This document shows, piece after piece, positions 1,703 through 51,071 of a DNA stretch of 64,000 nucleotides. The translations under genes were made by a program, and so were the position numbers. The first letter of the stretch is position 1; the number at the start of each line of letters is the position of its first letter. A model generated the notes under the pieces. It had not been told where the DNA came from and ran no database searches. It saw only the letters and a program-made list of their open reading frames with translations. This DNA is from Mobula hypostoma (Eukaryota), in contig NC_086108.1 in NCBI RefSeq assembly GCF_963921235.1, positions 84,694,001 to 84,758,000 of the forward strand, given 5' to 3'.

Positions 1703-1903
1703 AAAGGCATCAGGGCAGCTTGAGGGAAAGAGCCATAGTTTTGTCTGTGACTGCAGCAAGACTTGTTCGATAGTATAAGCTGCATGTCCATAAATTCAGA
1801 CAGCTACAATTGTAGGCATCGTTGAAACAGTTCAGTGCAAAATGGGGACTTGATCTGGCTCAATATTCAGAAAGAAAGGTTTTATCCTACAGTTCTTGAG
1901 AAT

Positions 1904-2107
1904 AGCAACGCACATCAAAGTTGCTGGTGAACGCAGCAGGCCAGGCAGCATCTGTAGGAAGAGGTGCAGTTGACGAAGGGTCTCGGCCTGAAACGTCGAC
2001 TGCACCTTTTCCTACATATGCTGCCTGGCCTGCTGCGTTCACCAGCAACTTTGATGTGTGTTGCTTGAATTTCCAGCATCTGCAGAATTCCTGTTGTTTG
2101 CGTTTTA
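1904..2107 (+). mobile_element. Fold-back Penelope-like (pLTR-derived) insertion with hammerhead motif at the loop
   Basis: ~65 bp inverted arms around TGACGAAGGGTCTCGGCCTGAAACGTC; 13 bp TSD AGTTCTTGAGAAT at 1891-1903 and 2108-2120. Confidence 0.8.
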
Positions 2108-2495
2108 AGTTCTTGAGAATTAATTCTTTAGTCACTTTTCTGACCACCTGATCAGTACATTGGCATGCCCCTGCACTCTATAGTTTTATTTCTCTCAAAC
2201 CAATTGTCCAATTTTTAAAATCAAATTCAAACTTTCTAATCAAGGTTCCTAAAAATAAATTTTAATATCAAGCATACTAAAATCACAACCATTGTTCTTA
2301 GCTTGATTGTCAGAATCCCAGCTTTGCTCATTGCCTAAGGATACATCTTATCAGGATCTGGATGTTCTTATAGCTCGAGTACACAGACATCATCACACCT
2401 AGTATGTAGTACAAAATGGCACTCTGAACAAGACAAAACAACATGCCCCAGAAAATACAATGTAATCAAAAATCTGTGAATTATAAATTCCTCAC

Positions 2496-2610
2496 CTCAT
2501 CATATAGTGTACCATTGACATCTGCACCATAAATTGGTGGGTTGAATGTGAGATTTTTCCAATACTTCCGCTCGAGATCATCAAAGTCCGTATATCGAGG
2601 AGTGCAGTAT
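2496..2610 (-). CDS. KDM4A: KDM4A third coding exon (115 nt)
   Basis: (K)[38 protein letters not shown]; tttttcAG acceptor, GTgag donor; phase matches the previous exon. Confidence 0.95.
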
Positions 2611-2939
2611 CTGAAAAAAGATAAACAATGAATAAGGGTACAATTCTAACCAGAAATTCAATTCTGTTTTAAAATGAACCAAACTATACTTTACCAGCTA
2701 GACTGCAGAACAGTACAGCACAATCTGAATATTTTTAAAACTTTGCTGTGCTGGCAGGTCCAAACAAGTTCTCTCTGCTCTCATATTTTAACTTTCATTC
2801 CCATATTAAGAAACACCAGAAGCAATACAACCACAGAATATCAGCAAGGGATCTAATACTAGCATCCAAATCAAATTTCAAGTTGTGAGACATTCTCCTG
2901 CCAACTTTTTCACCCAGTTCCCTTTTGCAGACTACAATC

Positions 2940-3240
2940 ACAGAGACACACCGAACAGACTCTTAAGCCACTAAGTCTGGACTCATCAAGAATCACCCAT
3001 CAATAATTAATCTTTTAATTTATTCTTCTCAAATTCTATCCTCCACCTATATACCAGGAGAAATTTACAATATTTAATTAACCTATCAATGTACAGATTT
3101 AGGATGAGGAAAAGAACCACAGTACTCGGAAATTCCTACAATCACAGAGAGAATTTATAAATGCCATACAGACAGTGCCCAAGGTCCGGAATGAATCCAA
3201 GACTCTGATGCTGAGGCAGCAGCCCTACCAGCTGTGCGTT
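2940..3240 (-). mobile_element. Old tRNA-derived SINE-like remnant
   Basis: Degenerate similarity to the copy at 30040-30236 (tRNA-like head, ...gtctgtatgg...); boundaries approximate. Confidence 0.4.
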
Positions 3241-3579
3241 CTACTCTTACATTAGTGAAGTAAACTACATGTCTTTCATCTCTTTACCTCATATTCTTGA
3301 TTTCTGACTCCACCTCTTTCCCCCTTCTATTATACAATTTTAGAATCAGAAGCCTAAAAAGCCTGACTGGCATGGATAATGATGCAATTCAGGACCACTG
3401 AACCAGGACTCAAAATAGGCTCATTTGAAAATCGAAATTACAATACCTGAAACCTGAAATTAACACAGAAAATGCTAGAAACATTTGGCCAGGGAATATC
3501 TAAGTTATGAGGAACAAAGTTAATGCTTCATGCTGGAAAGAAAGGGTCTTTGGCCAAAAACAGCAACTGCTTCTCTTTC

Positions 3580-5510
3580 CACAAGATCACAAGACAAAGG
3601 AGCAGAAGTAGGCCATTCGGCCCATCGAGTCTGCTCCACCACTCCACCATGAGCTAAACTATTCTCCCATCTAGTTCCAATTTCCGGCTTTTTCCCCATA
3701 TCCCTTGACACCCTGACTGATTAGATACCTATCAATCTCCTCCTTAAACACACTCAAGGATCGGGCCTCCACAGCTGTGGCAACGAATTCCATAAATCCA
3801 CGACCCTCTGGCTAAAAAAATTTCTCCTCACCTCTGTTTTAAATGGGTACTCTCTAATTCTAAGAGTTTGGCCTCTTGTCCTGGACTTACCCACCAAGGG
3901 AAACAGTCTTTCCACATCTACTCCGTCCAACCCTTTCAACATTCAAAATGTTTCTATGAGATCCCCTCTCATTGTTCTATACTCTAATGAATACAGTCCA
4001 AGAGCTGACAAACACTCCTCATATGTTAGCCCCTGCATTCCAGGAATCATCCTCGTAAATCTTCTCTGAACTCTCTCCAACATCAGAACATCCCTTTAAG
4101 ATAGGGGGCCCAAAACTGCACACAGTATTCCCAATGAGGTCTCACCAGTGCCCCACAGAGCCTCATCAACACCTCCTTACTCTGATAGACTATTCCTCTT
4201 GAAATGAATGCCAATATAGCATTTGCTTTCCTTACTGCTGATCCAACCTGGTGGTTAACCTTTAGGGTACCCTGCACGAGGACCCCCAAGTCCCTTTGCA
4301 CTTACGATTTTTGAATTTTCTCCCCATCTAAATAATAATCTGCCCAATTATTTCTTCTTCCAAAATGTATAACCATACATTTCTCAACATTGTATCTCAT
4401 CTGCCATTTCTTTGCCCACTCTCCTAAACTGAGTCTCTTTGCAACCTTTCCGTTTTTTTCAACATTTCCTGCTCCTCCACCTATCTTGGTGTCATCCGCA
4501 AACTTAGCCACAAAACCATTTAATCCATAATCTAAATCATCGACATACACTGTAAAAAGAAGTGGCCCCAACATCAACCCGTGCAGAACACCACTAGTAA
4601 CCAGCAACCAATCAGAATAGGATCCCTTTATTCCCACCCTTTGCTTTCTGCTTATCAGCCAATGCTCCACCCATACCAATATCTTTCCTGTAATTCCATG
4701 GGCTCTCATCTTATTAAGGAGCCCCTTATGCAGCATCTTATCGAAGGCCTTTTGAAAATCCAAATACACAACATTCACAGCCTCTCCCTTATCAATCTTA
4801 TTTGAGATTACCTCCAAAAATTCCAATAGGTTGATGAGGCAGGATCTTCCCTTCAGGAAACCATGCTGGCTTGGGCCTATCCTGTCACGCACCTCGAGGT
4901 ATTTCATAACCTCGTCCTTGAGGATCTACTCCAATAACTTTCCAACTACCGATGTCAGACTGATAGGTCTGTAATTTTCTTTTTGCTGCCTCTCTCCTTT
5001 CTTAAACTACATTTGCGATCTTCCAGTCCTCCGGAACCATGCCAGAGTCTATTGATTCCTGGAAGATCATTTCCAATGCCTCCACAATCTCCAAAGCCAC
5101 CTCCTTCAGAACTCGTGGGTGCACCTCATCCGGTCAGGGAGACTTATCTATTCCTAGCCCATTTAGCTTCCCAAGCACTTTCTCTCTAGCAATCTTGACT
5201 GTACCTAATTCTATTCCCTGAGACTTCTGGCTATCAAGTATGTTGCTAATATCTTCCACTGTGAAGACTGATGCAAAATACTCATTTAGTTCCTCTGCCA
5301 TCTCTTTGTTACCCATTATAATTTCTCCAGCATCATTTTCAATCGATCCTATATCAATCCGTGTCACTCTTTTACTCTTCATATATTTAAAAAAGCTCTT
5401 AGTATCCTTTTTAATGTTAATTGCCAACTTCCTTTCATAATTCATCTTTTCTTTCTAATGACCTTCTTAGTTTCCTTCTGTAAGTTTTTAAAAGTCGTCC
5501 AGTCCTCAGT
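3580..5510 (-). mobile_element. CR1/L3 LINE 3' fragment (RT)
   Basis: QHGFLKGRSCL, YLDFQKAFDK, KFADDTK, YCVQFWAPY; short tandem tail at 3580-3596. Confidence 0.9.
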
Positions 5511-7737: not shown

Positions 7738-8749
7738 TAAGTGACTGTAAATGTTGGAAGAATTCAGCGGGAAGGAATAGATGCAGAATGAATACAAGAA
7801 AGATCAACCAAACCTTTCCCTCCACAGATGGTGCTTGCCCTGCTGATTTCTTCCAGCAGTTTACTTTTTCCACTTGATTCAACTGATGTTGCATCAACTT
7901 TAATAAGGTATACAGTAGCAAGTTCGAGAAGTTTGTGAATGGGGGAGATCAAAAATATTTTTAAATACAACTACTACCTCTCTAAGCATAGCAATGTTTT
8001 CAAATATAATTATACTTTGAGTTTCAATAAGTTTTTTGAAAAGGTGCTACTTAAATCTTTTTTCTACTCTTGAATGCCCACAGCTTGGATGCAAAGATAT
8101 TTTTATTCTGGTGTCAGATAAGCAAATATGTTTTAGTTGTCAAATTATACCTCATGATTCTGATTATGTAAGCTTTTCAAAAAACCAGATACTCATGATA
8201 TACTTACAGACATGAACAGATATTTATCCCTCGGGTTCAAATGGTACTACCAGATAGAAAGTTGCATTCTCTAAAGCTTTTTGCTACATTAATAAGGATA
8301 AGGAGTGAATAGGGATCTTTAAGATGATGAACTAGTTTCACAGGTGGATAAAGAACATGTCGCTTCTTGCAAAGCAGCTGAAAACCAAGGACCATAAATA
8401 AGATGCTCTTAAAATTCAGTCAAAATGTTACCCAGAATTTGGCAGAACATGGAATTCACTGCAATGAATTTAATGCAAAGATACATATTAAAAGGGAAAT
8501 TCAATAAGTAATAGGTATATTAGGCAAGAAAGCAACAGCAGAACTTTTTGATTAATGCACCTTGCTGCAAGTTCTATGCAACTGATATCCGTGTTAAATA
8601 TCAAAGAACAAAAAGAAAATGTACTATTAGAAGCAACTACAGAAATGGAGCAGAATTTCAAAAACATTGCAAGTGTTTTAGATCACGTTTTCGATTTCCA
8701 GTTTTATCAGTCTATTATACTAAAGGATGATACAGAGAGGCTCTCTTAC

Positions 8750-12100: not shown

Positions 12101-12368
12101 ATGTGTGGGTATCGCCGCAAGGCAGTGGAGGTTTAAGATTAGAATTTTCCTTCTCCTAGATGAGCTGTCAACCATGGCTGATAAGCCCTAACTGCTTAAA
12201 GTGACCGGTCTTAAGGCACCAGTAACCCGCCTTTGCCCCATCTGTCAGTAGGAATGGCAGTCAGGTTTAGTAGCTAAGCCGCACATGAAGGCAAGGAGCT
12301 GGACTTGACTGTCAGAGGATATTTGAGGCACACGCCATTGCGAGCATCTAATAGGTGGTGGGAGTTTA
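12100..12368 (-). mobile_element. Dispersed repeat, probable RTE-type 5' leader fragment
   Basis: Reverse-complement homolog of 30700-30940; the family assignment is inference. Confidence 0.45.
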
Positions 12369-13388
12369 CTATAACAACCTTAAGTTAAAATATATCAAGC
12401 ACTAAGCACAGTTAACTTTTAAGTATCCAAAAGTCTCAATAAGGCACATTTATATTATTTTATCAATATATTTCAATATCAATTCACTAACCTCCCAAAA
12501 TTCACTCTTCACAATGCTACATGGAATAAAATGCAATCATTTGGATCCTTCAAAAATTTAATATCACAATTTGCTCCTAACTCACTTCAAAGCTGACATG
12601 TTTAATTGTTGTTTGTGAGATTTGAGTACCAGTCTTCATTAGCCAACAGCCTTTGAGACTTGTCATGCAAACTAAGGTGGTTAAGAGCTCTCAAGGGAAA
12701 CTATATCACAATAGAACACTTTTACTCTTTTTGAAATATCGTTTACTGAGCTCGTCACATTTTTCATCTGGGTCTCTGTAACACCCATTAAGGGAACAAT
12801 AGCCTAGAAAAAAAGCTCTGAGTTGCAATTGTAGTAAGTTGCCTGTTCAGGTTAAGTTGAATGAAACTAGAGCTCTCTATATATTTGTCAGTGCTGCCAC
12901 AGTGATACTGCAGGAGGCTCAACATTCCCAAGCTGCAGGGAAGGGGTGGAGGAGGAAGTGAAGAATCATTAGCATTAGTTTGTGATGAAAATCCAATAAT
13001 ACTTTGTTCAAGTGCCTTGTGTAAACTCATGACTTAAAAGTTAACATTCCCTTCATTAAAAAGCTAACAAACTTCTTTTTGGTGCAGCACCAACAACCTG
13101 TCCCTGAATGTGAACAAAAGAGATGGTTGTTGACTTCAGGAGAGCATGGAGCGACCACTCTCCGCTGAACATTGACGACTCCTCCGTTGAGATCGTTAAG
13201 AGCACCAAATTTCTTGGTGTTCACATGGTGGAGAATCTCACCTGGTCCCTCAACACCAGCTCCATAGCCAAGAAAGCCCAGCAGTGTTTCTACTTTCTCC
13301 AAAGGCTGAGTAAAGTCCATCCCCCAACCCCCATCCTCACCACATTCTACAGAGGATGTATTGAGAGCATTCTGAGCAGCTGCATCAC

Positions 13389-13638
13389 ACATCAAAGTTG
13401 CTGGTGAATGCAGCAGGCCAGTCAGCATCTCTAGGAAGAGGTACAGTCGACATTTCGGGCCGAGACCCTTCGTCAGGACTAACTGAAAGAAGGGCTAGTA
13501 AGAGATACCTATCGAAGGGTCTCCGTCCCAAACGTCCACTGTACCTCTTCCTAGAGATGCTGCCTGGCCTGCTGCGTTCACCAGCAACTTTGATGTGTGT
13601 TGCTTGAATTTCCGGCATCTGCAGAATTCCTCGTGTTT
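13389..13638 (+). mobile_element. Fold-back Penelope-like insertion
   Basis: Inverted arms of ~80 bp; TSD GCAGCTGCATCAC at 13376-13388 and 13639-13651; the paralogous Rex1 copy near 20130 shows the single-copy empty site. Confidence 0.85.
13444..13481 (-). ncRNA. Minimal type-I hammerhead ribozyme motif (Penelope-like)
   Basis: Minus strand reads UAGUC-CUGACGA-A-GGG(UCUCGG)CCC-GAAA-U-GUC-GACUG: stem I UAGUC/GACUG, core CUGANGA...GAAA, stem II GGG/CCC, GUC cleavage triplet. Confidence 0.7.
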
Positions 13639-14812
13639 GCAGCTGCATCACTGCCTGGTTTGGGAATTGCACCATCTCGGATCACAAGACCCTGCAGCTG
13701 ATAGTGAGGTCAGCTGAGAAGATCATTGGGGTCTCTCTTCCCACCATTACAGACATTTACACCACATGCTGCACCCGCAAAGCTACCAGTATTGTGAAGG
13801 ACCTCACGCACCTTTCACACAAACTCTTCTCCCTCCTGCCATCGGGCAAAAGGTACCGAAGCATTCGGGCTCTCACAACCAGACTGTGCAACAGTTTCTT
13901 CCCCCAAGCCATCAGACTCCTCAAAACTCAGAGTCTAGACTGACATTCACATCATTTATTATTATATTGTAATTTGTCCTCTACTGTGCCTATTGTCTTG
14001 TTTATTAATTACTGTACTGCCCTGCATTGTTTTGTGCACTTTATGTAGTCCTGATCAGGTCTGTAGTCTAGTGCAGTTTTTATGTCGTTCTACATAGTCT
14101 AGTGTAGCCTTGTACTGTCTCACATAGTCCAGTGTAGTTTTGTGTTATTTCATGTCGCATCGGGGTCCTGGAGGAACTTCGTTTCGTTTTTACTGTGTAC
14201 TGTACCAGCAGCTTATGGTCAAAATGACAATAAACTTGACTTGACTTGAACAAAAGGCCAAATAGATGACTCCAGATAAGGTCACTATATATCATAAGAC
14301 TATCAAGTTCACTTTCACAATTGCTCAAGATGGTGGAAGTCTACTTTCTGAATTCATAGACTCTGTGAAGGTACTGTTGTGCCGTTATGTTACAAGTTAC
14401 AGGATTTTGTCCAGTAGACAAAGAGATGATAGTAAATTTCCAAGTCAGAATGGATTGTGATCTTGAAGGAAACTTGCAATTCCTGGCTTTCACACCCACT
14501 GCTATCCCATTCTCTGAGGTGGTACAGATCTCAGCTTAATAAGGAGAGCTCTACAAAGCATCAGTCACATGAGGTATGCCACACTCTTGCTGTACTACTG
14601 GCAGTGAATCCTTAGGGTAGTGGACAAGACATCAATCAAACAAGCTGCTTTATCTGGGGACATTCTTCTTGAGTACTGTAGATGTAGCCATGCAGGAGTG
14701 CATTTCATCAGTGACATTTACCTCTCTGACAGTAAAATGCCTAGTGTATGATGTGCCAAAGATCTCATGCAAAATACTCAACCTCTGATTAATTTCCTTA
14801 AGCCACAATATT

Positions 14813-17800
14813 TTTTTATATAATTTTTATTGAGCTTTCAAAAAGAATACATGAAAAGATAAAATCTACCCACCCCCCCCTCCCCCCCCATATATATATA
14901 GTCCTACCGAAAAGAAAGAAAGAGAAAAAAAAAGAAGAGCCGCCTGGGTATTGGAAGGTTTCCACATGCTCCATGGGATTCAAAATAAATTTGGTATAAT
15001 TATTCGTTATTTTCCCCAAGTAACCAAATTCTTTGTCGGAGCACTTAAATATGACATCCTATCTTTTGTAAATAAGGGCGCCAAATATTCAAGAATGTTA
15101 GATAATTATCTCTTAAATTATAAGTAATTTTTTCAAGTGGAATAGAACTAGCCATTTCATTATTCCAACGATCCATACTTAAATACGAATCAGATTTCCA
15201 AGTAACTGCTACAGTCTTCTTAGCTACTGCCAATGCAATTTTTATAAATTCTTTCTGATATTTATTCAATTTAAGTTTCGGTTTTATCCCTTCAATATCA
15301 CCTAATAGAAATAATACAGGGTTATGTGGAAGTTGAATTCCAGTAATTTGTTCCAATAAGACTCTTAAATTTATCCAAAAGGGTTGAATTTTAAAACAAG
15401 ACCAAGTAGAATGTAAAAAAGTACCAATTTCTTGATTACACCGAAAACATTTATCAGATAGATTTGAATTTAATCTAGCAACATACATCAAAGTTGCTGG
15501 TGAACGCAGCAGGCCAAGCAGCATCTATAGGAAGAGGCGCAGTTGATGTTTTAATCTATTTATTTTTTGTGGTGTAATATATAATTGGTGTAAAAAATTA
15601 TATTGTACTAATCTAAGTCGAACATTTATTGTATTTGTCATACTGTCCAAAGTCTTGACCAATTTATTTCATCAATATTAATATTCAGATCTGTTTCCCA
15701 TTTTTGCTTTGACTTATGGGTTCCTTGTTTAATTGTCTGTTCTTGAATCAAATTATACATACAAGAAATAAATTTTTTAATTTTCCCTTTTTGAATTAAA
15801 ATTTCAATTTCATTAGCTTTTGGCAAAAACATTGTTTGACCCAGCTTACCTATTAAGTAAGCCCTTAACTGAAAGTAGCAAAAGAAAGTATTATTAGATA
15901 TTTTATATTTATCCTTTAATTGTTCAAATGACATCAATATACCTCGCTCAAAACAATCTCCTATAAATTTAATCCCTTTTTGGTACCAATTATATAAAAG
16001 TTGATTGTCCATTGTAAAAGGAATAAGTCTGTTTTGAAACAAAGGTCTCCTTGCTAATAGAGATTTCTGTGTTTCCTTATCAACATTTATCTTATTCCAT
16101 AGATCAATCAAGTGTGTTAACATAGGAGATTCTTTCTTTTCCCGTATCCATTTAGATTCCCATTTATATATAAAATCTTCAGGTTTATTTTCTCCTATCT
16201 TGTCTAATTCATAAGTTTTATGTCTATGGGAATAGAACGAATAGTCTCTTTCTTTAGGATTGATTCTTCTCCATATATCAATCAAATTTAAATCTTTCAT
16301 CAATGATAAAGTTAGATTTACTACCTTCGATTTTATAACAGCCTTGGTTGATCTATCTAAGACTGGGTCTAAGCAAAAATTGAAGTCGCCTCCAATTAAT
16401 ATTTTTTCATGTGCATCCACCAAATTCAAAAAAGTTTCTTGTATGAATTTTGCATCATTTTCATTTGGTGCATAAATATTCATAAAAGTCCATAGTTCGG
16501 AAAAAAGTTGACAATGTATAATCACATATCTCCCCGCAGAATCAGTTATTACATTTTGTATCCTAATTGGTAACGTTTTATTGATCAAAATTGCTACTCC
16601 CCTCGCTTTTGAATTAAATGAGGCTGCAACAACATTACCCACCCAATCTCTCTTTAGTTTCTGATGTTCTGTTTCTGTTAGGTGCGTTTCCTGTAAAAAA
16701 GCTAAATCTATCTTCATTTTTTTAATATATGTTAAGATTCTTTTTCTTTTCACTGGTCCATTAAGCCCATTAACATTAAAACTCAAAAATTCCAATAAAT
16801 TAGTCATTATTCTTAACAAAGTTACTCCAATCTAAAACATTACTTATCTTCTCAACTCTCATAGTTCCTTGGGGAATCACTTTAAACTTCACCATGACGC
16901 TATGTGTCCCCCCACCCCCCAACCTTCCAGGCAAAAAGAAAAAAAAATAGAAAAAAAAAGAAAAAACAAAATACCCCCCCACTAATGTTGTGAATGAAAA
17001 GATACACAACACTACCCCCCTCCATTTTATGGGTCGCGGAAAAAGCCACGCTTGCACACATGATTAACGTAGCAATCGATCAGTGCTTCTTCCAGCTCCC
17101 CCGCAACAAAAAAAGTTTTATATATATATATATATAAAAACAAAATTAGTATTATTATTCCCAGCTAATTTCCTCCAGTATTAACCTTTCTTACCCCCCT
17201 CATATAATTAATACTATATTTATACTTTCATCCAGCTTCAAAAATCCAACAAATCCATTCTTAAACCCAATCTTCATCTTCATTCTATCTCGCTCTCCTG
17301 AGTTTGTTCGTATCTGGTGAATATTCAGAGAATCTTGCACAAACTGCTCTGCTTTCTGGTAGTCATCAAAAAATCTTTTTTCTCCACCAGACAAAAAAAT
17401 CTTCAAAGTTGCAGGATAACGCAGTATAAATTGATAACCATGCTCCCATAGGGTTTTTTTCACTGGATTAAACTTCTTCCTTTTCTTCAAAAGTTCGTAA
17501 CTTATATCAGGGTAGAAAAAAAACTCTTTTCCCTTTAATTATCAATGGCCCTTTTCTATCTTTGGCAGCTCGAACAGCCGCCTGTAGAATCCTTTCCTTG
17601 TCTTGAAATCTTAAGAATTTTATTAAAATCGATCGTGGATATTGGTCATCTTTTGGTTTTGGTCTTAAAGCTCTATGTGCCCGCTCAATTTCAATTGATC
17701 GAGCCTCCTCTCCCATTTGCAAAACCTCCGGGATCCATCTTTGAAAAAATTCTATTGGCTTTTCTTCTTCCATACCTTCTGTAAGACCAACAATTTTTAT

Positions 17801-18473
17801 ATTATTACGTCTACTGAAATTTTCCAACGTCCACTTTCTCCAAGAGTCGGTTTCTTTCCGAGTTCCAGACAAGCAAATCATTTTCTGTTTTTTCCACTCT
17901 ATCATTCATAAGCCCCATTTCTCTTTCCATCTTCTGAAGCTTCTTTTCCATTTTGTCCTGTCTTTCCATAACTTTATTATAGCATCTCTTTGTGTCTCTA
18001 AGCTCTTCTCTTACTTTCCTTAATTCAGCCGTTGATTGCAATACAGCCTCTCTTATGTTTCTATCATCTCCTTTACTTCCACTCGCTTCCAATTCTTCCT
18101 CCTCTTCTTCATCTGTGTTCTCTGCAGAATCCAGTTCTGACTCTGAGTCATTTTCAATTGCAGTGGGTGTCGGTTCTTGTAGTTTGCGCTGTGTCGCTTT
18201 GCCCATGCACAATTCCGTTGTCTTCTTCGGAGCAGCCTCTGCCACCGCCATTGCTCCCTGTTCTACCGAAGGAGATCCAACCTGAGTCCGAGGCTCCATC
18301 GCAGACTTCTTTTGTTGCGGTTTAGGAGGCATACCGTAAAGTAGTCTTACAAAGTTTATAAAGAGTTTTCAAAAAATATTTACCAACTTTGTTTTATTTA
18401 AACGGTACTTTACTGATTTGTTGCGGGAGAGCTGAATTTACACGTCTCAATCCCACGTCATCACGTGACGCCC
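14813..18473 (-). mobile_element. L1-clade LINE with intact ends, frameshifted ORF1 and an ORF2 lacking the RT
   Basis: ~17 bp TSD CCTTAAGCCACAATATT (14796-14812 / 18474-18490); A-rich tail; ORF1 RRNNIKIVGL, IERAHR; ORF2 EN SFNVNGL, FLQETH, IYAPN, GGDFN; C-terminal C..C..GTFLHSTWSC. Confidence 0.9.
15478..15549. mobile_element. Single-arm fragment of the fold-back Penelope-like element, inside L1 ORF2
   Basis: GCAACATACATCAAAGTTGCTGGTGAACGCAGC...; 9 bp TSD TTTAATCTA (15469-15477 / 15550-15558). Confidence 0.75.
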
Positions 18474-19579
18474 CCTTAAGCCACAATATTGAAGTGATTG
18501 ATCTAATTAATCTCTCATCTGTCATCAATCAACAGTTATCAGTATCTGCTGAAGGGAAAGAGAAAACTTAAGGTACTCAAAACTCACATTAATGACCTAA
18601 AGCTCACAACAAAATGATGTGACTGTTAAAAAAACTAGCTGTGTTATTATTTTGACCACATTTTTAGCTATCAAGAACATCAGTGAATGAGAAGTTTTAG
18701 GCAGATTAGCCAAAATCCCATACAGTTTTGCTCATAAACAGTTATTGCATTATAGCACCCCTTTCACTGTACGGTTTACCTAAGAGACTGCAGATGTTGA
18801 AATCTTAAGCAACAAACAAAATGCTGGAGAACTCAGTGGGTCAGGTAGCATCCATGGAGAGAAATGGATAGTTGATGTTATGGTCAAGATTGTTCACCTG
18901 CAATACTCTTGATTTTGTGTTGCTCACTGGATGGCTTACCAGATCAAAAGCTTGACAAATTTCAAGATTAGCAGTTTTGTTTTGCCTCTTTTGTTAATCA
19001 TAGAAAAATATAGAACAGGAAGTCTGTACTGCGTCCATGCAAGCCACAAATACAGTTTGCATTAATCCTTCTTGTGAGTTTTCCATTAATAACCCTGCAG
19101 ATTATAGATCAAGTGCTTATCCAAATCAAGAAGTGCAAAGAGAACTTCTGCCTCTACCCATTCAGACAGTGTGTGCTGGATCCCCAGCACCTAGAGACTT
19201 TATTTTCTCAACTTCTGTTTAGTTACCTTGCATCTACGCACCAGCCTGCCTCTACCATTATCGAAATCTCTAACTAAAGAGAGGTCAGCTGTCCACTTAA
19301 CCTGCCTAGTAATTAATCTTATATAGCTTAATTAAACTTATCAGTATCCTTTGATCCAACACCTCTTCACTATCACAGATCTCCAACTCCGATAATCTCA
19401 GATCTCCTGTCATGTCTCAAATACTATTACATCTTGTGTGTGTGGAGCAGGCTTGAAAGAGGAAAAGAAAAAAACACTATAAGCATTGAAAGTGTTCTAA
19501 AGGACAGCGAAGATTCAGGTGTGCTTTTGACAATACTTCAATCTACCAGCATTTCTAAGCATGGAAAAATTTGGGCATT

Positions 19580-24640: not shown

Positions 24641-24648
24641 GAAAAATA

Positions 24649-27760: not shown

Positions 27761-29821
27761 TACAGTGCTTGCATTGCACCTTTAGCACCAGTATGCTTTT
27801 AACAGCAGTGATTTTTTTAAATCCTGATGCACCACTATCTGACGTTTTTGGAAGACCCCATAGTTGTGCATCTAGCTGACCAAACAGTTTGCAGTTTCCA
27901 CTCTCCTGGGCCCAGTTCCAATGCCCCTTTTAAACTCGTTGCTTTTGTTGGTAACCATCCCCTGACATCTTCCTGTTTGTTTTCTGTGTGTCTTTTAAAC
28001 TTGCTGGATTCACTGGAGTTTTACTATGTAATATAAAGTGAATTACAAGCAAGTCAAAGCGCTTAACTGATAATCCAACACCATTAAAATCTCAGACATA
28101 TTGAATTAACAGTTTTTATAAATTAACAACATGACAACATGTCTTTATTAGTGTCTCACACAAATGACAATGGTTCAGAAGCCCATTGAGGATGGTGGAG
28201 GTCTTAGATCAGGTTTTTTTCTAAATCAGCTGGGAGGATTGAAGTCCGGTTCATATTAGAAGAGAAATTCAATGGATGATGGCTGGTCAGCAGAAATCAT
28301 CTGTCAATGGACAAAAAATTGGATGATGTTAGTCATAGAACAATGCCTTTTGGCTGATTCCATCTGGCTTGGTATGTTGATTAGGATTGGTGGGCAGAGT
28401 GATGAAACCCAAGCTCGTTGAGACTGCGTTTCAACATTCAGAATCAAATCACATGTACATTGAAACGTGCAGTGAAATGCGTCGTTTGTGTGAATAACCA
28501 ACACACCTCGGGATGTGCGGGGAGCAGCCTGCGGATACTGCCACACATTCCAGCTCCAAAATAGCATACAAGGAAAAATCTGAAGACGCTGTAAATCCGA
28601 GCAACACACAGAAAATGCTGGAGGAACTCAGCAGGCCAGGGAGCATGCCCACAGTGCTCGACAGAATAACAGGACTAAACAAGCCCCTTACCTCTCCCAC
28701 CTACACATGTGGAGAGTCTTCCAACTCCCACTATAGATACTGCCTGACCTGCTGTGTTGCTCTGGCATTTTGTGTGCCTTATTTGGGCCTCGATTCTCAG
28801 CACCAACCCATAGATGAGCTGACGGCAGGATTCCAAAGTTTTTCCGCTCCTCCTCACACGGACATCCACCTCCCTGGGACAGCTGTAGTGCAGGCCTGGG
28901 TGTCCATCAACTATCACGAAAAGGAGGCCTGACCTCTAATCCCTGTTCCTAAACATTATTCTGACTTCGAACTCTCGACATCGTTGTCCCTAAACCTTAA
29001 ACAACCCACCCATCCCCAAAACTTAAACAAAAACTAAGTCTGAACCACTGAAATCTCAACACAGTAACTAGAGCCAAATCTATAGTAGTAGTGGAATGGG
29101 ATGGTGTGAAGCACAGGTTGGGGAGTTACAGGGTGCCATGCAAGTCAAAAGCAACAATGGTTTCTTTGAAGCCATGTTCTTTATCCCTTTGTCAGCTTTT
29201 CACAAGAGTTAGTTATCTGTGGTGATTTTTATTCAGGTACTCTACGAGGTGTAAACGCACCTCATCCAACTACAGTACTATGCATTTGAATGCCAAGTTT
29301 TTAAGTTATTAACAGGTGCTCACCTTAAAGATTTGTGTACTTACACTCCAGGTCTGCTTATGCTTACAATTTAAATTTAAATTGTAGCACTTAGTTTATC
29401 TTTGCAAATTCCTTAGCAAAAAGTTTCTATTACCTTGGGTTAAATTTCACTTGCTGCATCTTTCCACGTTTCTCTGTTTTGTATCTTCTCAAGAGAAAGC
29501 TGGAAGAAGGAAAAGGTCAAACAGAGAAGATCAGAAAAGATTGAAGCAGAAGGTAACAGAGGCACATAGGGTCACCTGGTTAGTAAAATACAATTGATTG
29601 AAACAGAGTTGCACAATGAGGTAAATTCCTGACCACATTCGTACAATTTCATTCAGGCTTCTAATTTTTTTTATATATACCTCTGAGCTGTTGCTGCCTA
29701 AGATCATTTGCTAATGAACCTCTCAGGGAGCCATACAGCACAAAGTCTTTAAGTACGCCCTTCGGCCTACAGTCTGCATGAATAAAGGAGCATGCATTTA
29801 CACTTATCCCAATTATAATAT

Positions 29822-30011
29822 CGCAAACAGGAGGAAATCTGCAGAAGCTGGAAATTCAAACAACACACACAAAATGCTGGTAGAACGCAGCAGGCCAGGC
29901 AGTATCTATAGGAAGAGGTACAGTCGACGTCTCGGCCTGAAACGTTGACTGTACCTCTTCCTATAGATGCTGCCTGGCCTGCTGCGTTCCACCAGCATTT
30001 TGTGTGTGTTG
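29822..30011 (-). mobile_element. Fold-back Penelope-like insertion
   Basis: ~70 bp near-perfect inverted arms around ...GTCTCGGCCTGAAAC...; 14 bp TSD CCCAATTA(T/C)AATAT (29808-29821 / 30012-30025). Confidence 0.85.
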
Positions 30012-30039
30012 CCCAATTACAATATATCTACATTCCCAT

Positions 30040-33670: not shown

Positions 33671-34358
33671 GTACTTAATCCATTTTCTTCCAGACCATAT
33701 TTTATGAGTAATTAATGCAGAAAAGTGGGTAATTGCAAAGGGTTCACAAACTTTTTCTTGCAACTGTAGCTTTACTTTTCTAAATCACGTTTTCTCTTTT
33801 CAGTCTCCAAGCTCTGACACTGACCTCACCATCACCAGTCTGAGTGGGAGGCAGCTAACCAGCTCACAGGAGGAGGCTTTCTTGAGAAAACTGCAGGATG
33901 AACCCCACCTTTGTCAAATGGGTTCTGACATCAAGAATGAGTTTCAGAGAGTTCCCCTGTGGGGTAAGTGAACATCCCACGATCAATGTTCTGTGGCCAC
34001 CAGTATATACAACACATCACTGGAGGGTGTGGATGAAGTTGAGGAGAGCTTCAACAACCACCTGGAAATACAGTATTTTGAACTAGTAGCCAGAAGAATA
34101 CAAACTTAAGTTCCTCGTGGTAAAGAATGCTTTCTTCCTTCCTTTCCCTCTCTGATTGGCAAACAGCTGGGGGGGGGGGAGGGAAAGTAAGAAAGATTAA
34201 TTCCAGTAGTTACCTTCCTGGCGAATATTTGCAACACATTTTTGTCAGAGACAAGTGCAAGTTCTGATTGGCATCAATGTCTTGACCCAGGTGCAGGTAC
34301 AGCTACCGATTAGATTATGTCGTTCTCTGAGTAAGAGAAAGCAAATCATGAACAATTT

Positions 34359-34449
34359 AAAAACACAAACACGAGGACATCGACAACTCTTCCGACAGAT
34401 GCTGCCTGGCCTGCTGCGTTCACCAGCATTTTTTTAAATGTGTGTTGTA
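34359..34449. mobile_element. Truncated fold-back Penelope-like insertion next to an older copy
   Basis: GATGCTGCCTGGCCTGCTGCGTTCACCAGCA arm; 11 bp TSD ATGAACA(A/G)TTT (34348-34358 / 34450-34460). Confidence 0.65.
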
Positions 34450-37259
34450 ATGAACAGTTTGCTGGAGGTACTCAGTAGGTCAATAGTTCAATCCTTGAGT
34501 TCCTTCAGCATATAGTTTGTTGTTCCGGATTACAGCATGTGCAGTCAGTTATGTCTCCATGAGAATGCAATGGATGCCTGCACCACCTGTTCCATGACAG
34601 GAATAAACCATGCTGTTACCTCCAAGCACACTGGCCCCAAAGGCAGCAGTCACATTGATGTTGTGGGTCTCATGAAGTATGCTTGAATAGCTCCTCTCAG
34701 ACACTACACAGGCACATCCTATACTGCATTGGCCTCACCAAGAACTTCAGAACACACAGAACTGTCGTGGAAACAACTTAATTCTCTCGACTACGTCCTG
34801 TGATCCTTTCCACACCCGTTGTTAAAAACACCGCTAAAAAGTGTTGTTGCAACTTTATCCTAGTGTGTAGTATAAAGTACCAAACAAGGACTGGAATAAT
34901 ATCAGACAATACCCAGTTCTACTGGAAAGCAGAATAATCAGATCTCATTTATTGATAAAATTGTGTTCTATCATGATCAACTGTGATCTGTGGACATACG
35001 TTCAATAGGGCAGATAACATTGCCTTGAGTCATAGGATATAACACTGACAATAGAACGTGGACAGGTTGATTATAAGCAAAATATATAACAATTGTGAAC
35101 CTTTACATATTCGATCTTTGCTGAAAGGTTGAAGTTTCTGTCTAAGTTCAACAAGGAGCAGAGACATGAAAAGCACTGAGTCCTTAACGGTGGAACAAAC
35201 TATAGTAGGACTTTCGGAGTTGCGAGTCACCAACAGATTGGTTTCACACCATCTGGTAAAACATCAACAGATTACGAAGCAGTACTTTGCTGGAACCAGT
35301 TGATAAGTTTTACATTAAAAATATAGAAATGATAAATTTAACTAAAGCTATACTACCTTGATAATCACATTTAAGCAAATTAATCACTGTTTTTTAATTC
35401 AACAGTCAAATCTATTTTAATGGCCTAATGTTTTGCAGTACTGTTCACTGTTCTGCTGAATGAAGTCCAGAAGGGTTGAGGTTTCATTCTCAGTCTTTGC
35501 TGTGTAAGGTTGCATCATTTAGGAGTTATGATTTACTGTCCAATTTATGGCCAAGGACGAGAGGGGAGATTAACATTCAGTTCTCCACCAGTCACTCTTT
35601 GAATAATGATGGGCAAAATAGAATGGTCTTAGTTGTTAGGAGAAATGGCCTACATTTTCTTGAGCATGACCTGTTGCCTGTACACACCACTTGCATTTCC
35701 CACCATCTTGAATGTACTTGCCTCAGATCTGGAAAGCTAATATCCCTGGTTGAGGCAGTCCTGAAGTAAAGCAAAGGGACTTTGGACAGCAGTAAATTTC
35801 CAACAATGTAATTGGATAACTTGATGGACCAGACCAAGCATGGTCATAAATATTTTTTGAAAAGGTTTGATAGACTATAAAGTTCCCCACTTTAGAATTA
35901 GAATTTATTTAAGTCTTACATCCATCCTACAATGTGAGGGAGTAAAAATCTTTGTGTTATGACTCTGTTGTAATGTATGGACATGGGAATTTAAAAGTCT
36001 AATGGGTTGTAGAAAGAAGCTGTCCCGTAGCCTGTTGGTCCTGGCTTTAATACCGCAGTAGTGTTCGCCAGGTGGAAGCAGCTGAAACAGCTTATGGTTG
36101 AGGTAACTAGTGTCCCCACTGGTCTTCCAGACCTTCTTTCAATTTTCAACAATTTGAATAATCAATGCTTCTGAATATCCAGCAGTCAGAAACTTTTAAA
36201 GACTAATAAAAATGTATTGAAAGATTTTTAAAAATACTAAAATGATGAAAAAGCAGTATCACCCTGAAAACAATTAAAACATTATACCTGTACACAAGTA
36301 ATAAAAGACTTACCTTTCTTTACTGGAACAGTATAATTTCTATGAAAGTAACTGTGCTGTTGGATCTTTTCCCAGCTATCACAGGATCCAAAATCAAATT
36401 CCACTGTATAAGTGCTGGTGAAATTGGTAGTGGATCTTGGCCAGTACTTTTGGGAGTGCTGCATTCATGAGTATGGGCTTGCAGTTAAATATGGAACTGT
36501 CAAGATTTATCAGGGTCATTGTGTCAAAATGCTACTCATTGTTTTGAGCAAGCAAATGTAAAAAAAAGAGAACAAGGCGAGGGTGTAAGTAATGCTGTCA
36601 GAACTTAGATCTGTATCACAGGGAGGACTTCTTTTTTGGTCACCAGTGTTAAATGATTGTGATTGCAATGGTGATACTTTTAGTGACCAACAATTGCTTC
36701 CATTGACTTTGATGTGAATGTTCTTTGGGTAGTGAGGCAAAGAATAGTTAATACTCTTGCAGCAGTTCATTGCTTGCAATCTAAGCTAAATGTCCCTCCT
36801 GTGATTTCCAAAGAGAAGCAGAAAGTAAAATGCAAAACTGGGTGTATTAAGACAATATGTTGTGAGGTGATAACTGAAATAAATTGGGAGGGGGTAAGTT
36901 GGGGTGTTCATGCATCTCCAGACACACCATTTCCCTTGAGAACTTTGCCCCTGACTTGAATGACATAGATTTTAGATCCACATGATGGGGTGTGACAATA
37001 TTTACTTCCGAGCAAGTCAATAATCTGTACAAATTGTGTTAATATAATAACCCACATGGAAATCAACTTGCCTCCCCAACAAATTTTTCTTCATGAATGA
37101 TTTAACTATGTCTTCAGTAGCAGTGGTCTTTCGTTCCACTTTAACTGTTCCTGATAATTATGTATTTAAATCTGCATTAAACCAAAATATTGGATTAAAG
37201 ATGATTTAATTTCCAAGAATGAAAAAATACGTAAAAAATCCCCAATGAAGCCACATTGT

Positions 37260-40160: not shown

Positions 40161-41294
40161 TATTGAGTCATCTTGCCATTGATTTGCACTTATGTCTTAT
40201 ATATGGCTGTATAACCATATATTATTCTTGTATATGGTTTCTACAGCTTTTATCTATATATTCTTTCATCCAAAAAAATTGAAAAGGAAAAATATACAAA
40301 AAATATTTTGTGGTTGGAGGGGAACGGTGTTACAGGGATACAAGCAGTGGGAAGCAAGCAGGAATCAGTTGGCTTTCTTGTGTTCTCCTATTGCTATGAT
40401 TCTATAAAAATGATATAACTATTAAAAGTCATAAAATCAATTTTCCTCCCAATTCTGATTCTTCCTTTTCAAGTTCCCCAATCTACACCTATTTATTCCC
40501 CTCCACAGATGCTGTCTGACTTTCTGAATTGCTTCAGTATTTTGTGTGTGTTGGACTTCAGTAAAATATTTAACAAGATTGCACATGGTGGATTGTTTAC
40601 AAGGTTAATTCACATGGGATCTAAGGCAGGCTTGCTAAGGTTTCGTTTGTTCATAATATCCTTCAATACTCCCTTTTCAAGCAACCAACTACTTTTGAAT
40701 AAATTTACAGATTCTCCATTCGGGGGGTATAACTCAAATTAAAGTGAAATAAATTGCTATAAATTCTATCAGGCAAATTGTTATTTGTGAAGGGTACTTT
40801 TGAAAAATTGGCTGCATATAGACTGCACCAGACTGATTAAGTCACACTGATACAGTTGTATTTCTATGCTATACTGACTGTCCTGACTTACATACTATTC
40901 ATAACAAATTACTATAAATTGCACATTGCTCATTTAGATGGAGAAGATGGAGACATAATGTAAAGATTTTTACTCCTCATGTATGTGAAGGATGCAAGAA
41001 ATAAAGTCAATTCAATATTGGAGATTCTTACCTGATCTTATAATACAATTATCTTTGAGAAACAAATGATTTTCCACAGAAATGGTGGCAGTTTTGGGCT
41101 AGACTGCTGTTACATGGCTTTTGTAACTATGAGGAAATTTGGGACATCTGGACAAATGGGGAAGCCCTGAACTTAAGTGTAACAGCTTAATGTGAAATTC
41201 CTGATTGCAACCAAACGTTGGACTCTATGGAGTCCAACAGTGATGCATAAAGTGCTGCAGTTAATTAGAAAGTGTCGGACAACTTGGTAGGTGG

Positions 41295-48254: not shown

Positions 48255-50061
48255 CTATGTTAAAAACAATGGTGAATACTTACAAACAGTGTAACTGGAG
48301 GCTGGGCCACATTTGAATTGAAAATGTTTAAACATAAAATGGGGATAACCAATAAGTTAATGTATTTTCCCTCTTCTCTTGAGTACCCTCTCAAGATAGC
48401 AGGGAAGCCTTAAATACTGTGAATCAGCAGATTCAGTTACTATCTGTACACTCAAAACCTTTTTGCAGTGCTGCTGTGAAAGAGAGAAAACATACTTGGT
48501 AAAGACAAAATTAATACAAACATTAACCTGCCACCACATTGTATTTCCCTATGACAGTCAATAAAATTGAAATAAATGAATGTGAGGAAATGGAAGGATA
48601 TTTTTTATTGTGTAGCAGAGAAGATTAGTTTAGTGGCCGTTTGATTACTAAATTTAATTGGTTTGGCATAACATTGTGGACCAAACGGTCTGTTCTATAT
48701 TCTATAAACCCAAAGTTATATACTAGATTAAAAGTTTTCAACACAATTTTCTGCCAAGGTGAAAATGTTCAAAAGAGTTCTCTTCTAATTAATGGGGTGG
48801 AACCTCTTTGAGGTAGGCTTGCTCGCAGGGCAGCCTTAGGCTACTCAAATAGGTGTAATGAGTGATTGTGATACATGTACTTAAGAAGAAAAGTGTGCAT
48901 ATATTAGATACTAACAATGACTGCTAACACTGCACATATCCTATGGCCTCCAAATAGATAAATGGCCTCCTCCCAAGAGGACTGAACTCCAATTTCTTAA
49001 AGTAACTCTGTGTGTGAGTGGTATTCTCCATTTTGTTGAGTGATTGAATTTTAGAAACCTGATATTGTGTAGCACATAGAAATGTTATGAGACACAAACA
49101 GATTTCTTGGCTACAGGATGACAACAACAACAAAAAAAAATCACAAAACACAGTGCTCATAAAACTCTGACTTCTTTTAAATCACCAAGTATCAAGAAAA
49201 CAAGTACTAATACTTCACTACTGTATGAGACTAACCAATTATTTGCACTATCATGAGTATTAATTTTGACTGCATTGCCATTTCCAAATGGAATACAAGT
49301 TTCCATGATCACATGATACTGTCAAACTAATGTAATTTCTGAATGTATGAATAAATGTAATTTATCGTTTCCTTATGGGCTACATGCTGTAAAGTATGGA
49401 TAACTAAAATTCAAGTTTCAAAAAGTACATTATCATCATAGTTATAGCACACTTTTAAATGCTGACTGCAGTAGGAAACTCTGCAAAAATTAAATTTTCC
49501 AATACTTGCAAAGCAAAGATTTATACAGTCCAATGCAGTGCTCTCAGCCAAAAAAGTGGAATATAATAAACTAAAAAAGTCTACTGTAGACTAGAAAATA
49601 AACCAGAAAAGATGACAAGGGCTTGAGCAGAGCTCACAGACTGACCTGCTGAGTACATTTTAAGCCTTTCATGTCAAGAATAATACAAATACAGAAGGTA
49701 ACAAGGCTCTCCAATGTGCATCCTATATGCCACCTACATATTTGAACCTAACACTGGTGAGACAATCCTGGAACACTTTGAAAATCTTTGCCTCAAATTT
49801 GATGGTAATCAGATTTGCAGTACCTATATTAAAAAAAAACAGCCATTCAAGTAAAAATGGGAAAGGAAAACGGATTTTGAATATCAATGTTTTCATTACA
49901 GACTGCACTGCAGTAAAGTTGAGAGAATTAGTTCTCCATTAATTTTTGTCTGAGATTGGAAACTCTGAGGGGACAACATAACACATAATGCATAAAAGTA
50001 TAAACTGACAGAATAAGCCTCATTTCCACAGAACATTGATATGACTACAGTTCATACCTAC

Positions 50062-50187
50062 CCTGGCATCTGTTACTTTGAACTCTCGCAGGATATACTG
50101 TGGCATGCTATATTCTGCCATTGGATCTACCACAAAGTATTGATACCGGGCAGAACGTTCCGCTGGCCAGTACTGGTGGCACTTTTC
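50062..50187 (-). CDS. PTPRF: PTPRF D2 exon (126 nt)
   Basis: [42 protein letters not shown]; cacCAG acceptor, GTaggt donor. Confidence 0.95.
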
Positions 50188-50254
50188 CTGGTGACAACAA
50201 AGCAAGACATCAGCAAAACTGAGCACAATGAACAAGATACTCCTTATGTACATA

Positions 50255-50425
50255 AACACAAGATTTTCTGCAGACGCTGGCATTTTGAACACAAAGTGCG
50301 GGAGGAACTCAGCAAGTCAGGCAGCACTATGCAGTGGAACACTGATGAAGGGCCTCGATCCAAACTGTCAACCACTGCTGCTGCCTGACTTGCTGAGTTC
50401 CTCTTGTATAGTGTTTGTGTTGCCT
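50255..50425. mobile_element. Older, diverged fold-back Penelope-like copy
   Basis: Arms GAGGAACTCAGCAAGTCAGGCAGCA / TGCTGCCTGACTTGCTGAGTTCCTC around CTGATGAAGGG...GTC (50342). Confidence 0.65.
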
Positions 50426-50516
50426 CTTATGCAGATCACTTTTAAATAAAATTGTTTTCAAACAAGTGGCATTCCACATCTCATTTACTGCTCTTAAAAC
50501 TATATTTAATATTTTG

Positions 50517-50642
50517 AAAAACGAGGAAATCTGCAGATGCTGGATTTTCAAGCAACACACATAAAAGTTGCTGGTGAACGCAGCAGGCCAGGCAGCATCT
50601 CTAGGAACAGGTACAGTCGACGTTTTGGGCCGAGAGTGTTGC
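50517..50642 (-). mobile_element. Fold-back Penelope-like insertion with a 7-nt second arm
   Basis: 13 bp TSD ATTTAATATTTTG (50504-50516 / 50643-50655); ends GTGTTGC. Confidence 0.8.
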
Positions 50643-51071
50643 ATTTAATATTTTGGCTGGCTTCTGATGTGTTAGATTCACTAGTGTTCTACCATTTCTG
50701 AGATAAACAACCTGTCTTTGCAAGTAATTTCTACAAGAACATTAGTAATTTTCATCTTTGTTTGGAATAAGCTATTTAAGAAAGTGATCATATTCATAGG
50801 TAGTAAGGTCACAATAACTACAAACATTTTAGCTACTAATACCATCGGAACTGATGCTGAGTAAAAATTGATTGATATGGAGAAAAGCCACTTCCAAACT
50901 TCTTCCATTACACACTATACCTTTAAAAACTATGAAGGGCAAATTAATCAGATTGTCAATCCTGGTGAATTTTAAATGTAGTACTCACAGCTATTAATTA
51001 CCAAATAAACAGTGAACCATCTCCCTCAGTGTTTGGTGCAGTTCAATATACTATAAATGAGCATTACTTAC

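What the first reader, a model, noticed from the sequence alone, without database searches (positions are those of the whole stretch)
1891..50655. Family of short fold-back, TSD-flanked insertions built around the hammerhead
Seen: six young copies (1904, 13389, 15478, 29822, 34359, 50517), each with its own 9-14 bp TSD, plus older diverged copies (~3450, 7740, 18780, 28570, 40440, 50255). Most share one ~40 nt unpaired end (...GCATCTGCAGAATTCCTCGTGTTTGC). The inverted arm begins at nearly the same point (GCAACACAC) but has variable length, from 7 nt to over 100 nt, and the junctions mostly fall in or next to the ribozyme. Inference: these are not MITEs (long variable TSDs, asymmetric ends). 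They look like independent abortive Penelope insertions in which second-strand priming or template switching creates an inverted pLTR, with truncation focused at the ribozyme structure.
Basis: partly seen in the sequence, partly recalled or inferred. Interest (0 to 1): 0.75.

Follow-up and report, generated by a model that had tools for sequence, protein, structure and literature searches.

The report
Truncated head-to-head Penelope retroelement ends
These short hairpin-shaped insertions are real and look like the dead, truncated ends of Penelope-like jumping genes in a ray-type genome, laid down in a pattern already described for this class; their extra value is that the shape of each copy hints at how these elements paste themselves into DNA.

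Summary
The six young copies and their 9-14 bp TSDs are real; one TSD is confirmed by an empty-site paralogue. One young copy (15478) is single-armed and tail-less, so not a fold-back. The unit carries a minimal type I hammerhead and has two target-side ends about 40 nt apart; all 9 callable two-armed loci use one of each, head-to-head. This is the published Penelope-like 'inverted truncated copy plus tail' anatomy in miniature, and this scan noted it before in two other shark-type genomes. No RT/GIY-YIG parent could be linked here (no genome held). Every junction differs, so it is not a fixed MITE/SINE. Refinements: in 4 loci neither arm can be a copy of the other, which favours priming from both target nicks over fold-back copying; 8 of 11 young arm ends lie inside the ribozyme, but 7 of those 8 run past the cut site, so structure or self-complementarity, not cleavage, is the likelier cause; older copies show weaker focus (3 of 8). 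Known kind, useful natural dataset.

The parts
1891..2120 (.). Young copy 1904 with 13-bp TSDs (1891-1903, 2108-2120): tail-less arm 1904-1975 on minus (+68 to about +2/-4), tail arm 1971-2107 on plus (-27 to about +110); 4-5 nt overlap in the ribozyme hairpin register
13376..13651 (.). Young copy 13389 with 13-bp TSDs (13376-13388, 13639-13651) inside a LINE fragment: tail-less arm to 13506 on minus (to about -58), 6-nt spacer, tail arm 13513-13640 on plus (-24 to +104)
   Evidence: empty-site paralogue
13445..13481 (-). The only complete minimal type I hammerhead: 5-bp helix I, CUGACGA core, bulged A, short G-C helix II, GAAA, 2-nt palindromic helix III (substituted in this copy; family majority restores the palindrome)
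   Evidence: variant table
13479..13500 (-). Pyrimidine tract and AG just 5' of helix I, 3'-splice-site-like; 3 of 4 ray gene models that exonise the unit enter it here
   Evidence: sequence; use as a splice site is inference
15469..15558 (-). Young copy 15478 with 9-bp TSDs: single tail-less arm (+67 to -5/-7), no fold-back
29808..30025 (.). Young copy 29822 with 14-bp TSDs: tail arm 29822-29930 on minus (+105 to -3/-5), tail-less arm 29929-30011 on plus (-18/-16 to +66); junction at the -18..-4 quasi-palindrome; folds to a long hairpin (z -22.7)
34348..34460 (.). Young copy 34359 with 11-bp TSDs: 19-nt tail-end arm 34359-34377 on minus (+92 to about +110), tail-less arm 34377-34449 on plus (-5/-4 to +66); the two arms share no sequence
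34459..34551 (.).
   Evidence: (E 1.7e-4, not in the model)
50504..50655 (.). Young copy 50517 with 13-bp TSDs: tail arm 50517-50635 on minus (to -17), 7-nt tail-less arm 50636-50642 on plus (+61 to +67)
18776..18925 (.). Older copy: tail arm on minus reaching into the ribozyme (at least -6, by eye -17 to -28), short tail-less arm on plus; no TSD found
28563..28787 (.). Older copy: tail arm on minus to +21, about 80 nt of unrelated sequence, tail-less arm on plus from about +15
50243..50433 (.). Older copy: tail arm on minus to about +4, tail-less arm on plus from -28; degenerate 8-nt TSD candidate
7744..7867 (.). Older copy: significant plus arm (7798-7862), weak minus arm; tail side not callable
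40476..40555 (+). Older copy, single recognisable arm ending at the inner end
3456..3582 (.). Possible very old head-to-head copy cut by a LINE at 3583; not significant
   Evidence: (E 4.7)

Best explanation
These are dead-on-arrival insertions of the 3' end (pLTR) of an endonuclease-bearing Penelope-like retroelement of rays, each made once and not copied again. Steps: (1, inferred from PAc biochemistry) the element's protein makes two staggered nicks 9-14 bp apart in mostly AT-rich DNA; (2, inferred; geometry shown) each nick primes its own cDNA on the element RNA, one from the outer start (+99..+110) and one from the inner start (+60..+68), which gives two outward-facing arms and a tail on one side only; (3, shown for 2 loci) both arms derive from the same source sequence; (4, shown in young copies) synthesis usually ends within the ribozyme region, mostly past the cut site, so the template was uncleaved; (5, inferred) the two cDNA ends are joined by short homology, self-complementary ribozyme sequence or filler, and repair fills in the TSD. 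If only one nick primes, a plain truncated copy results (15478).
For: TSDs and empty site. One inner and one outer end in 8 of 8 loci scored (0.5^8 = 0.004) and in a ninth found there (34459). Arms not nested in 13389, 34359, 50255 and probably 29822. Arm pairs share 4 (29822), 2 (1904) and 0 (13389) non-majority states, against at most 1 in 33 between-locus pairs. Hammerhead topology fits the minimal PLE type of PMC4209133. PMC11167929: the Anolis PLE protein cuts and extends both strands, prefers AT-rich DNA, starts at two sites that bound the tail, uses uncleaved RNA and is predicted to be a dimer. PMC8557442 and PMC3846280: inverted truncated copy, 30-40 bp one-sided tail, 8-10 bp TSDs. 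8 of 11 young arm ends in -33..+5; simulated P <= 1e-4 for that window and <= 0.03 for any 39-nt window under geometric arm lengths; long tail and tail-less arms end at the same mean RNA position (-17) despite starts about 39 nt apart (n = 4 and 5).
Against: No RT/GIY-YIG ORF was linked to the unit. Later deletion at the centre of a long palindrome could produce non-nested arms from a fold-back product. Shared variants could come from conversion between arms or from two RNAs of one source locus; 13389 shows none. Only 3 of 8 old arm ends lie in the ribozyme. The statistics rest on 6 loci, a post hoc window and a geometric null; PLEs without ribozymes also give short insertions (median 128 bp, PMC9977147 passage). 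One TSD (13389) is GC-rich. Read-laying gave no usable genome-wide junction map.
Confidence: 0.6

Rival explanations
1. Same element, but the inverted arm is made by self-priming or template switching: one cDNA folds back at the ribozyme hairpin and is copied, the second end being fixed by a nick or stop (close to the self-priming idea of PMC3846280 and to the first reader's template switch).
For: 1904 joins in the exact hairpin register (-26..-23 pairs with -4..-1; monomer fold) and 29822 in a 12-of-15 quasi-palindrome whose self-duplex energy is the lowest of 50 windows along the unit. Arms share private variants. Palindromes at inverted junctions are reported in PMC3846280.
Against: 34359 has two arms with no shared sequence; 13389 and 50255 have tail-less arms reaching 34 and 32 nt further upstream than the tail arm; 50517 would need a 78-nt jump without homology; the fixed inner end matches an in vitro RT start type rather than a stop.
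Confidence: 0.13
2. Dual priming: two separate RNAs, one per protomer, are copied from the two nicks (possibly paired through the palindromic helix III of a dimeric ribozyme).
For: Overlapping arms need strand displacement if one RNA serves both; four arm ends lie at -3..-7 or may do so, at the helix III palindrome; minimal hammerheads are thought to act as dimers. Dual priming is described as a possibility for L1.
Against: Arms of one insertion share subfamily variants that differ between insertions, and two free RNAs give no obvious reason for strict one-inner, one-outer use (9 of 9).
Confidence: 0.12
3. The template is a short non-autonomous RNA (retrozyme-like or mini-PLE) whose 5' end lies near the ribozyme, so the arms are nearly full-length copies of a short RNA rather than truncations of a long one.
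For: Arm ends gather near the ribozyme; no ORF link found; a splice-acceptor-like site abuts helix I; non-autonomous PLE derivatives exist.
Against: Ends are ragged over 30 nt rather than sharp; one arm runs to -58 through the acceptor-like site; none of the 13 loci in the window is a head-to-tail array.
Confidence: 0.12
4. A self-replicating hairpin SINE or MITE with a fixed master.
For: High abundance: 40,624, 51,592 and 12,084 contigs laid in three organisms' runs; short length.
Against: All junctions in the window differ; TSDs vary from 9 to 14 bp; ends are asymmetric; each of the 5 joints in table 5 rests on one contig per run (12 of 33 rows of table 5c shown, so weak).
Confidence: 0.03

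Closest known systems
Insertion units of canonical EN+ Penelope-like elements (inverted 5'-truncated copy, one-sided 30-40 bp tail, TSD): PMC8557442 (passages seen), PMC3846280 (part 2 and passages seen), PMC8969392 (passages seen)
   Same: Head-to-head arms, one-sided tail of about 37-43 nt, variable TSD, heavy 5' truncation, hammerhead near the 3' end.
   Different: Here both arms are cut down to under 140 nt, so no ORF is present and the whole insert is a 70-250 nt hairpin or fragment; parent ORF not shown.
PAc, Poseidon of Anolis carolinensis: PMC11167929 (parts 1-2 of 4 of the text, text of Fig. S1; Fig. S2 is an image and gave nothing; the GenBank supplement could not be read)
   Same: Two start sites bounding the tail downstream of the ribozyme, both strands used, AT-rich targets, uncleaved template; the two starts share a short repeated motif in both (my reading of Fig. 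S1 letters, and of the window).
   Different: Different sequence (GU-rich starts here, AC-rich there); that paper does not, in the parts read, assign the two starts to the two nicks of one insertion or describe junctions at the ribozyme; no ORF start conserved in this unit.
Minimal type I hammerheads of metazoan PLEs, including close pairs on opposite strands in Schistosoma: PMC4209133 (parts 1-2 of 4 seen)
   Same: Short helix I, bulged base before helix II, G-C first pair, palindromic 15.2-16.2; motif mostly in truncated copies; pairs 100-700 bp apart on opposite strands noted; intron end at helix I in D. virilis.
   Different: Helix II here is 3-4 bp, shorter than the 7-8 bp given for Schistosoma; 12 of 13 loci have lost part of the motif; activity untested.
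L1 twin priming and dual priming: PMC2837659 (passages seen)
   Same: Two inverted pieces inside one TSD, each primed from a target nick, joined with little or no homology.
   Different: In L1 the second priming site is variable, the product is usually an inversion with deletion and is a minority; here both starts are fixed, arms usually overlap, and two-armed products are the majority (5 of 6 young).
Animal non-LTR retrozymes: bioRxiv 10.64898/2026.07.22.740005 (part 1 and passages seen)
   Same: Non-coding, hammerhead-bearing, PLE-related, present in a chondrichthyan.
   Different: Defined as head-to-tail tandems with a complete ribozyme per unit; these are dispersed, head-to-head and mostly ribozyme-broken.
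MITEs
   Same: Short, inverted-repeat, TSD-flanked, abundant.
   Different: No fixed length, no symmetric terminal repeats, no fixed TSD length, no shared junction.

Membership tests
EN+ Penelope-like elements (truncated insertion units) | Single ORF with telomerase-like RT and GIY-YIG endonuclease joined to this end sequence | tested here: inconclusive
   No genome; 0 GIY-YIG hits in 178 ORFs >=75 aa; protein searches found only exonised copies in 4 ray gene models. Absence is expected of truncated copies.
EN+ Penelope-like elements (truncated insertion units) | Minimal type I hammerhead near the 3' end | tested here: met
   Descriptor hit at 13480 minus, 1 vs mean 0.04 in 100 shuffles; majority palindrome. 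Rfam has no hit.
EN+ Penelope-like elements (truncated insertion units) | Adjacent inverted 5'-truncated copy, head-to-head | tested here: met
   5 of 6 young and 4 clear older loci.
EN+ Penelope-like elements (truncated insertion units) | 30-40 bp tail at one end only | tested here: met
   9 of 9 callable two-armed loci, of 11.
EN+ Penelope-like elements (truncated insertion units) | Variable-length TSD, AT-rich target preference | tested here: met
   9-14 bp; 5 of 6 TSDs 69-92% AT, one 38%.
EN+ Penelope-like elements (truncated insertion units) | Partial direct tandems (pLTR formation) | tested here: inconclusive
   None among the 13 loci; one joint (13483 to 13382) can only be a direct tandem at the inner end.
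EN+ Penelope-like elements (truncated insertion units) | Clade placement by RT phylogeny (Poseidon, Neptune, Nematis) | not testable with these tools
   No linked protein.
Hammerhead ribozyme (active) | Self-cleavage | not testable with these tools
   Predicted monomer and dimer folds take an alternative long hairpin, not the active fold; contigs cannot show RNA ends.
MITE | Symmetric terminal inverted repeats, fixed length, fixed short TSD | tested here: not met
Self-replicating SINE | Shared fixed 5' end or junction among copies | tested here: not met
   All junctions differ; a Pol III promoter or tRNA head was not searched for.
Non-LTR retrozyme | Head-to-tail tandem units each with a complete hammerhead | tested here: not met
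   1 complete motif in 13 loci, none in tandem.

The most novel reading that the evidence does not exclude
Penelope-like elements normally insert by programmed twin priming: a dimeric protein primes both target nicks at two fixed sites on one RNA, which explains the tail, the inverted copy and the TSD at once; and the hammerhead matters here not by cutting but as a folded, self-complementary block where both polymerases stop and their cDNA ends anneal, turning most events into short hairpins. Ray genomes would then hold a very large natural record of this reaction. A side lead: 2 of 12 listed joints land exactly on -1, which, if they are direct repeats, would be template jumps onto ribozyme-cut RNA in vivo.
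Probability: 0.25. Interest if true: 0.65.

Novelty: new member of a known kind. Interest (0 to 1): 0.35.

Why it matters
How PLEs make their inverted copies and tails, and what their hammerheads do, are stated as open in the papers read (PMC11167929: later steps not validated; PMC8557442: HHR function unclear; PMC3846280: self-priming hypothesis). These miniature inserts show both target junctions and the internal junction within 250 bp, at about one locus per 5 kb in this window (13 in 64 kb), so a ray assembly could decide between twin priming, dual priming and fold-back by counting alone. They also scatter near-perfect hairpins and cryptic splice acceptors through introns, and will be mis-annotated as MITEs or miRNA precursors.

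Tried and rejected
Whole-genome survey: no genome held. Pattern scans of viral (1 match) and metagenome (16 matches) contigs: none extended beyond the motif neighbourhood at convincing scores, read as chance. Rfam: 5 matches, all below gathering score, generic hairpin or sRNA models. Read-laying (contigs only): the top loose ends at -30..-32 look like a truncation hot spot but their consensus is the upstream sequence of an older subfamily, so they mark a homology boundary and were rejected as evidence; depth fall-off was not used (edge effects, not a copy number); 448 loose-end rows and 21 rows of table 5c were not shown, and 5c does not print whether a joint is direct or inverted, so its clustering (from -31..-44 to -6..+23 in 8 of 12 shown rows) is left as a lead. 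No RNA-specific difference stood out in the one possible RNA run. Coding in the unit: the frame open in young copies is not evidently kept in older ones; protein searches gave 0 hits, 2 real of 6 and 4, all host gene models with an exonised copy. 'Arms end at the cleavage site': rejected, only the 1904 tail-less arm is compatible. [quoted passage not shown]
Full report
Observation. The repeat is real. Six young copies sit at the stated coordinates with TSDs of 13, 13, 9, 14, 11 and 13 bp and inserts of 204, 250, 72, 190, 91 and 126 nt. Random position pairs gave a comparable repeat of at least 9 nt in 11 of 3000 trials and of at least 13 nt in 0 of 3000. Copy 13389 interrupts a LINE fragment whose paralogue in the window carries the 13-mer once, which proves insertion and duplication. 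A profile of young arms finds older copies at 18780, 28570, 50255, 7800 and 40500; 3450 is not significant; an extra old copy lies at 34459-34551. That makes 13 loci in 64 kb, counting the doubtful one. Contigs of three organisms hold the unit in tens of thousands, and four named ray gene models (Mobula, Hemitrygon) contain it, so the host is most likely a ray (inference).

The unit. I number from the predicted ribozyme cut. The left arm of 13389 holds a complete minimal type I hammerhead: a 5-bp helix I, the CUGACGA core, one bulged base, a short G-C helix II, GAAA and a two-base helix III (1 descriptor hit, mean 0.04 in 100 shuffles). This copy has a substitution in helix III; about 78-92% of laid depth at that position carries the base that makes it palindromic. 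This fits the PLE motif of PMC4209133. Rfam reports no hammerhead. The other 12 loci lack part of the motif. Just 5' of helix I lies a pyrimidine tract and AG, in both subfamilies (window; loose-end consensus); three of the four gene models enter the unit at that point, and D. virilis Penelope has its intron end at helix I. Downstream, the unit has two target-side ends, +60..+68 and +99..+110, both after a similar GU-rich motif; in three single-arm folds the tail pairs back with the region after the ribozyme, though with no better energy than shuffles (z 0.19, 0.18, -0.87), and the majority sequence folded otherwise.

Anatomy. Two-armed loci are head-to-head, with both RNA 3' ends facing the target. 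One arm has the outer end and the other the inner end in 8 of 8 loci scored (p = 0.004 if independent) and in the ninth found there; 2 further two-armed candidates cannot be called. 15478 is a single tail-less arm. Arm 5' ends in young copies: tail arms -27/-22, -24, -5/-3, +92, -17; tail-less arms +2/-4, about -58, -18/-16, -5/-4, +61, -7/-5. No two junctions are the same. Junction types: 4-5 nt overlap (1904), 2 nt within a 12-of-15 quasi-palindrome (29822), 1 nt (34359), none (50517), 6-nt filler (13389).

What it is. This is the published PLE insertion anatomy: an inverted 5'-truncated copy and a 30-40 bp tail often at one end only (PMC8557442), head-to-head with 8-10 bp TSDs (PMC3846280); close opposite-strand ribozyme pairs were noted in Schistosoma. 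Membership therefore rests on four non-coding hallmarks (my confidence about 0.85). MITE, fixed SINE and retrozyme readings fail their defining tests. After I had stated this reading, the scan's notes showed two earlier reports of the same pattern in shark-type genomes; they are not independent evidence.

How it works. The Anolis PLE protein nicks and extends both strands, prefers AT-rich DNA, starts reverse transcription at two internal sites that bound the tail, works on uncleaved RNA and is predicted to be a dimer (PMC11167929). The simplest join of that biochemistry with this anatomy is twin priming from two fixed starts. The discriminating evidence is non-nested arms: in 34359 a 19-nt tail end faces a 70-nt tail-less arm with no shared sequence; in 13389 and 50255 the tail-less arm reaches 34 and 32 nt further upstream than the tail arm while lacking the tail; 29822 is alike but ambiguous within the quasi-palindrome. 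Neither arm can be a copy of the other unless the centre was later deleted, which remains possible. The arms of one insertion share non-majority states (4 in 29822, 2 in 1904, 0 in 13389; at most 1 in 33 between-locus pairs), pointing to one source per event and several sources in the family; conversion between arms could mimic this.

The ribozyme focus. 8 of 11 young arm ends, and at least one in each of 6 loci, lie within -33..+5. Under geometric arm lengths with a detection floor, simulated P was at most 8.5e-5 for that window and at most 0.028 for any 39-nt window. Long tail and tail-less arms end at the same mean position (-17) although their starts differ by about 39 nt, which suggests position rather than length, on 4 and 5 arms. 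Seven of the eight run past the cut, so cleavage is not the main cause; the region folds as one long hairpin and holds the most self-complementary window of the unit, which could stall the enzyme or help the two cDNA ends anneal. Against this: only 3 of 8 placeable old arm ends lie there, the sample is small, and ribozyme-less PLEs also give short insertions. Read-laying could not settle it: its strongest loose ends are a subfamily boundary, and the listed joints lack a stated orientation.

Novelty and verdict. The class, the tail, the inversion and the ribozyme are known. I found no listing that assigns the two starts to the two nicks or reports junctions at the ribozyme, but key subscription papers and some supplements (an image figure and a GenBank file of PMC11167929) were not seen. 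Verdict: real, a new member of a known kind, interest 0.35; the most novel reading has probability about 0.25 and would deserve about 0.65.

Noticed in passing
   Followed up: partly
window 13479-13500 (minus); proteins P0003, P0004, P0011: Splice-acceptor-like site at helix I; 3 of 4 ray gene models (STARD3NL, an unnamed protein, SIRT3) enter the unit at the same residue, a fourth (CoA synthase) begins inside it. Possible recurrent exonisation or annotation artefact.
   Followed up: partly
window about 50056-50193 (minus): Exon-like stretch matching the protein-tyrosine phosphatase domain (PF00102), about 60 nt from old copy 50255; the nearby hairpins are probably intronic.
   Followed up: no
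table 5c, positions 13449 (two rows) and 13483 to 13382: Two joints land exactly on -1 (the 5' product end of the ribozyme); orientation not printed. One joint is a direct tandem at the inner end.
   Followed up: partly
table 5, 13477 to 13432: A 46-nt direct step back spanning the ribozyme, one contig each in three runs (two organisms); possibly one shared locus.
   Followed up: no
window 28647-28730: About 80 nt of unrelated sequence between the arms of the old 28570 copy; filler, capture or later insertion.
   Followed up: no
window 13376-13388: The TSD end matches the element's inner end at 6 of 7 bases and the site is GC-rich, suggesting priming helped by base pairing at this locus.
   Followed up: partly
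window 57964-63114 (+) and 15048-18368 (-): Two L1/Tx1-like elements; the first has ORF1-like frames and a 946-aa endonuclease-RT frame followed by a frameshifted 323-aa frame.
   Followed up: no
window 51748-52345 (+): DDE_3 (Tc1/mariner-like) transposase remnant.
   Followed up: no
window 363-1455, 3583-5510, 9374-12187, 19718-24183, 43048-44056: Many decayed RT-bearing LINE fragments (CR1/L2-like by recall); ALKBH8_N hits come from these LINE frames.
   Followed up: no
window about 25750-26570: GC-rich stretch that reads like a CpG-island promoter or first exon (seen in ORF translations only).
   Followed up: no
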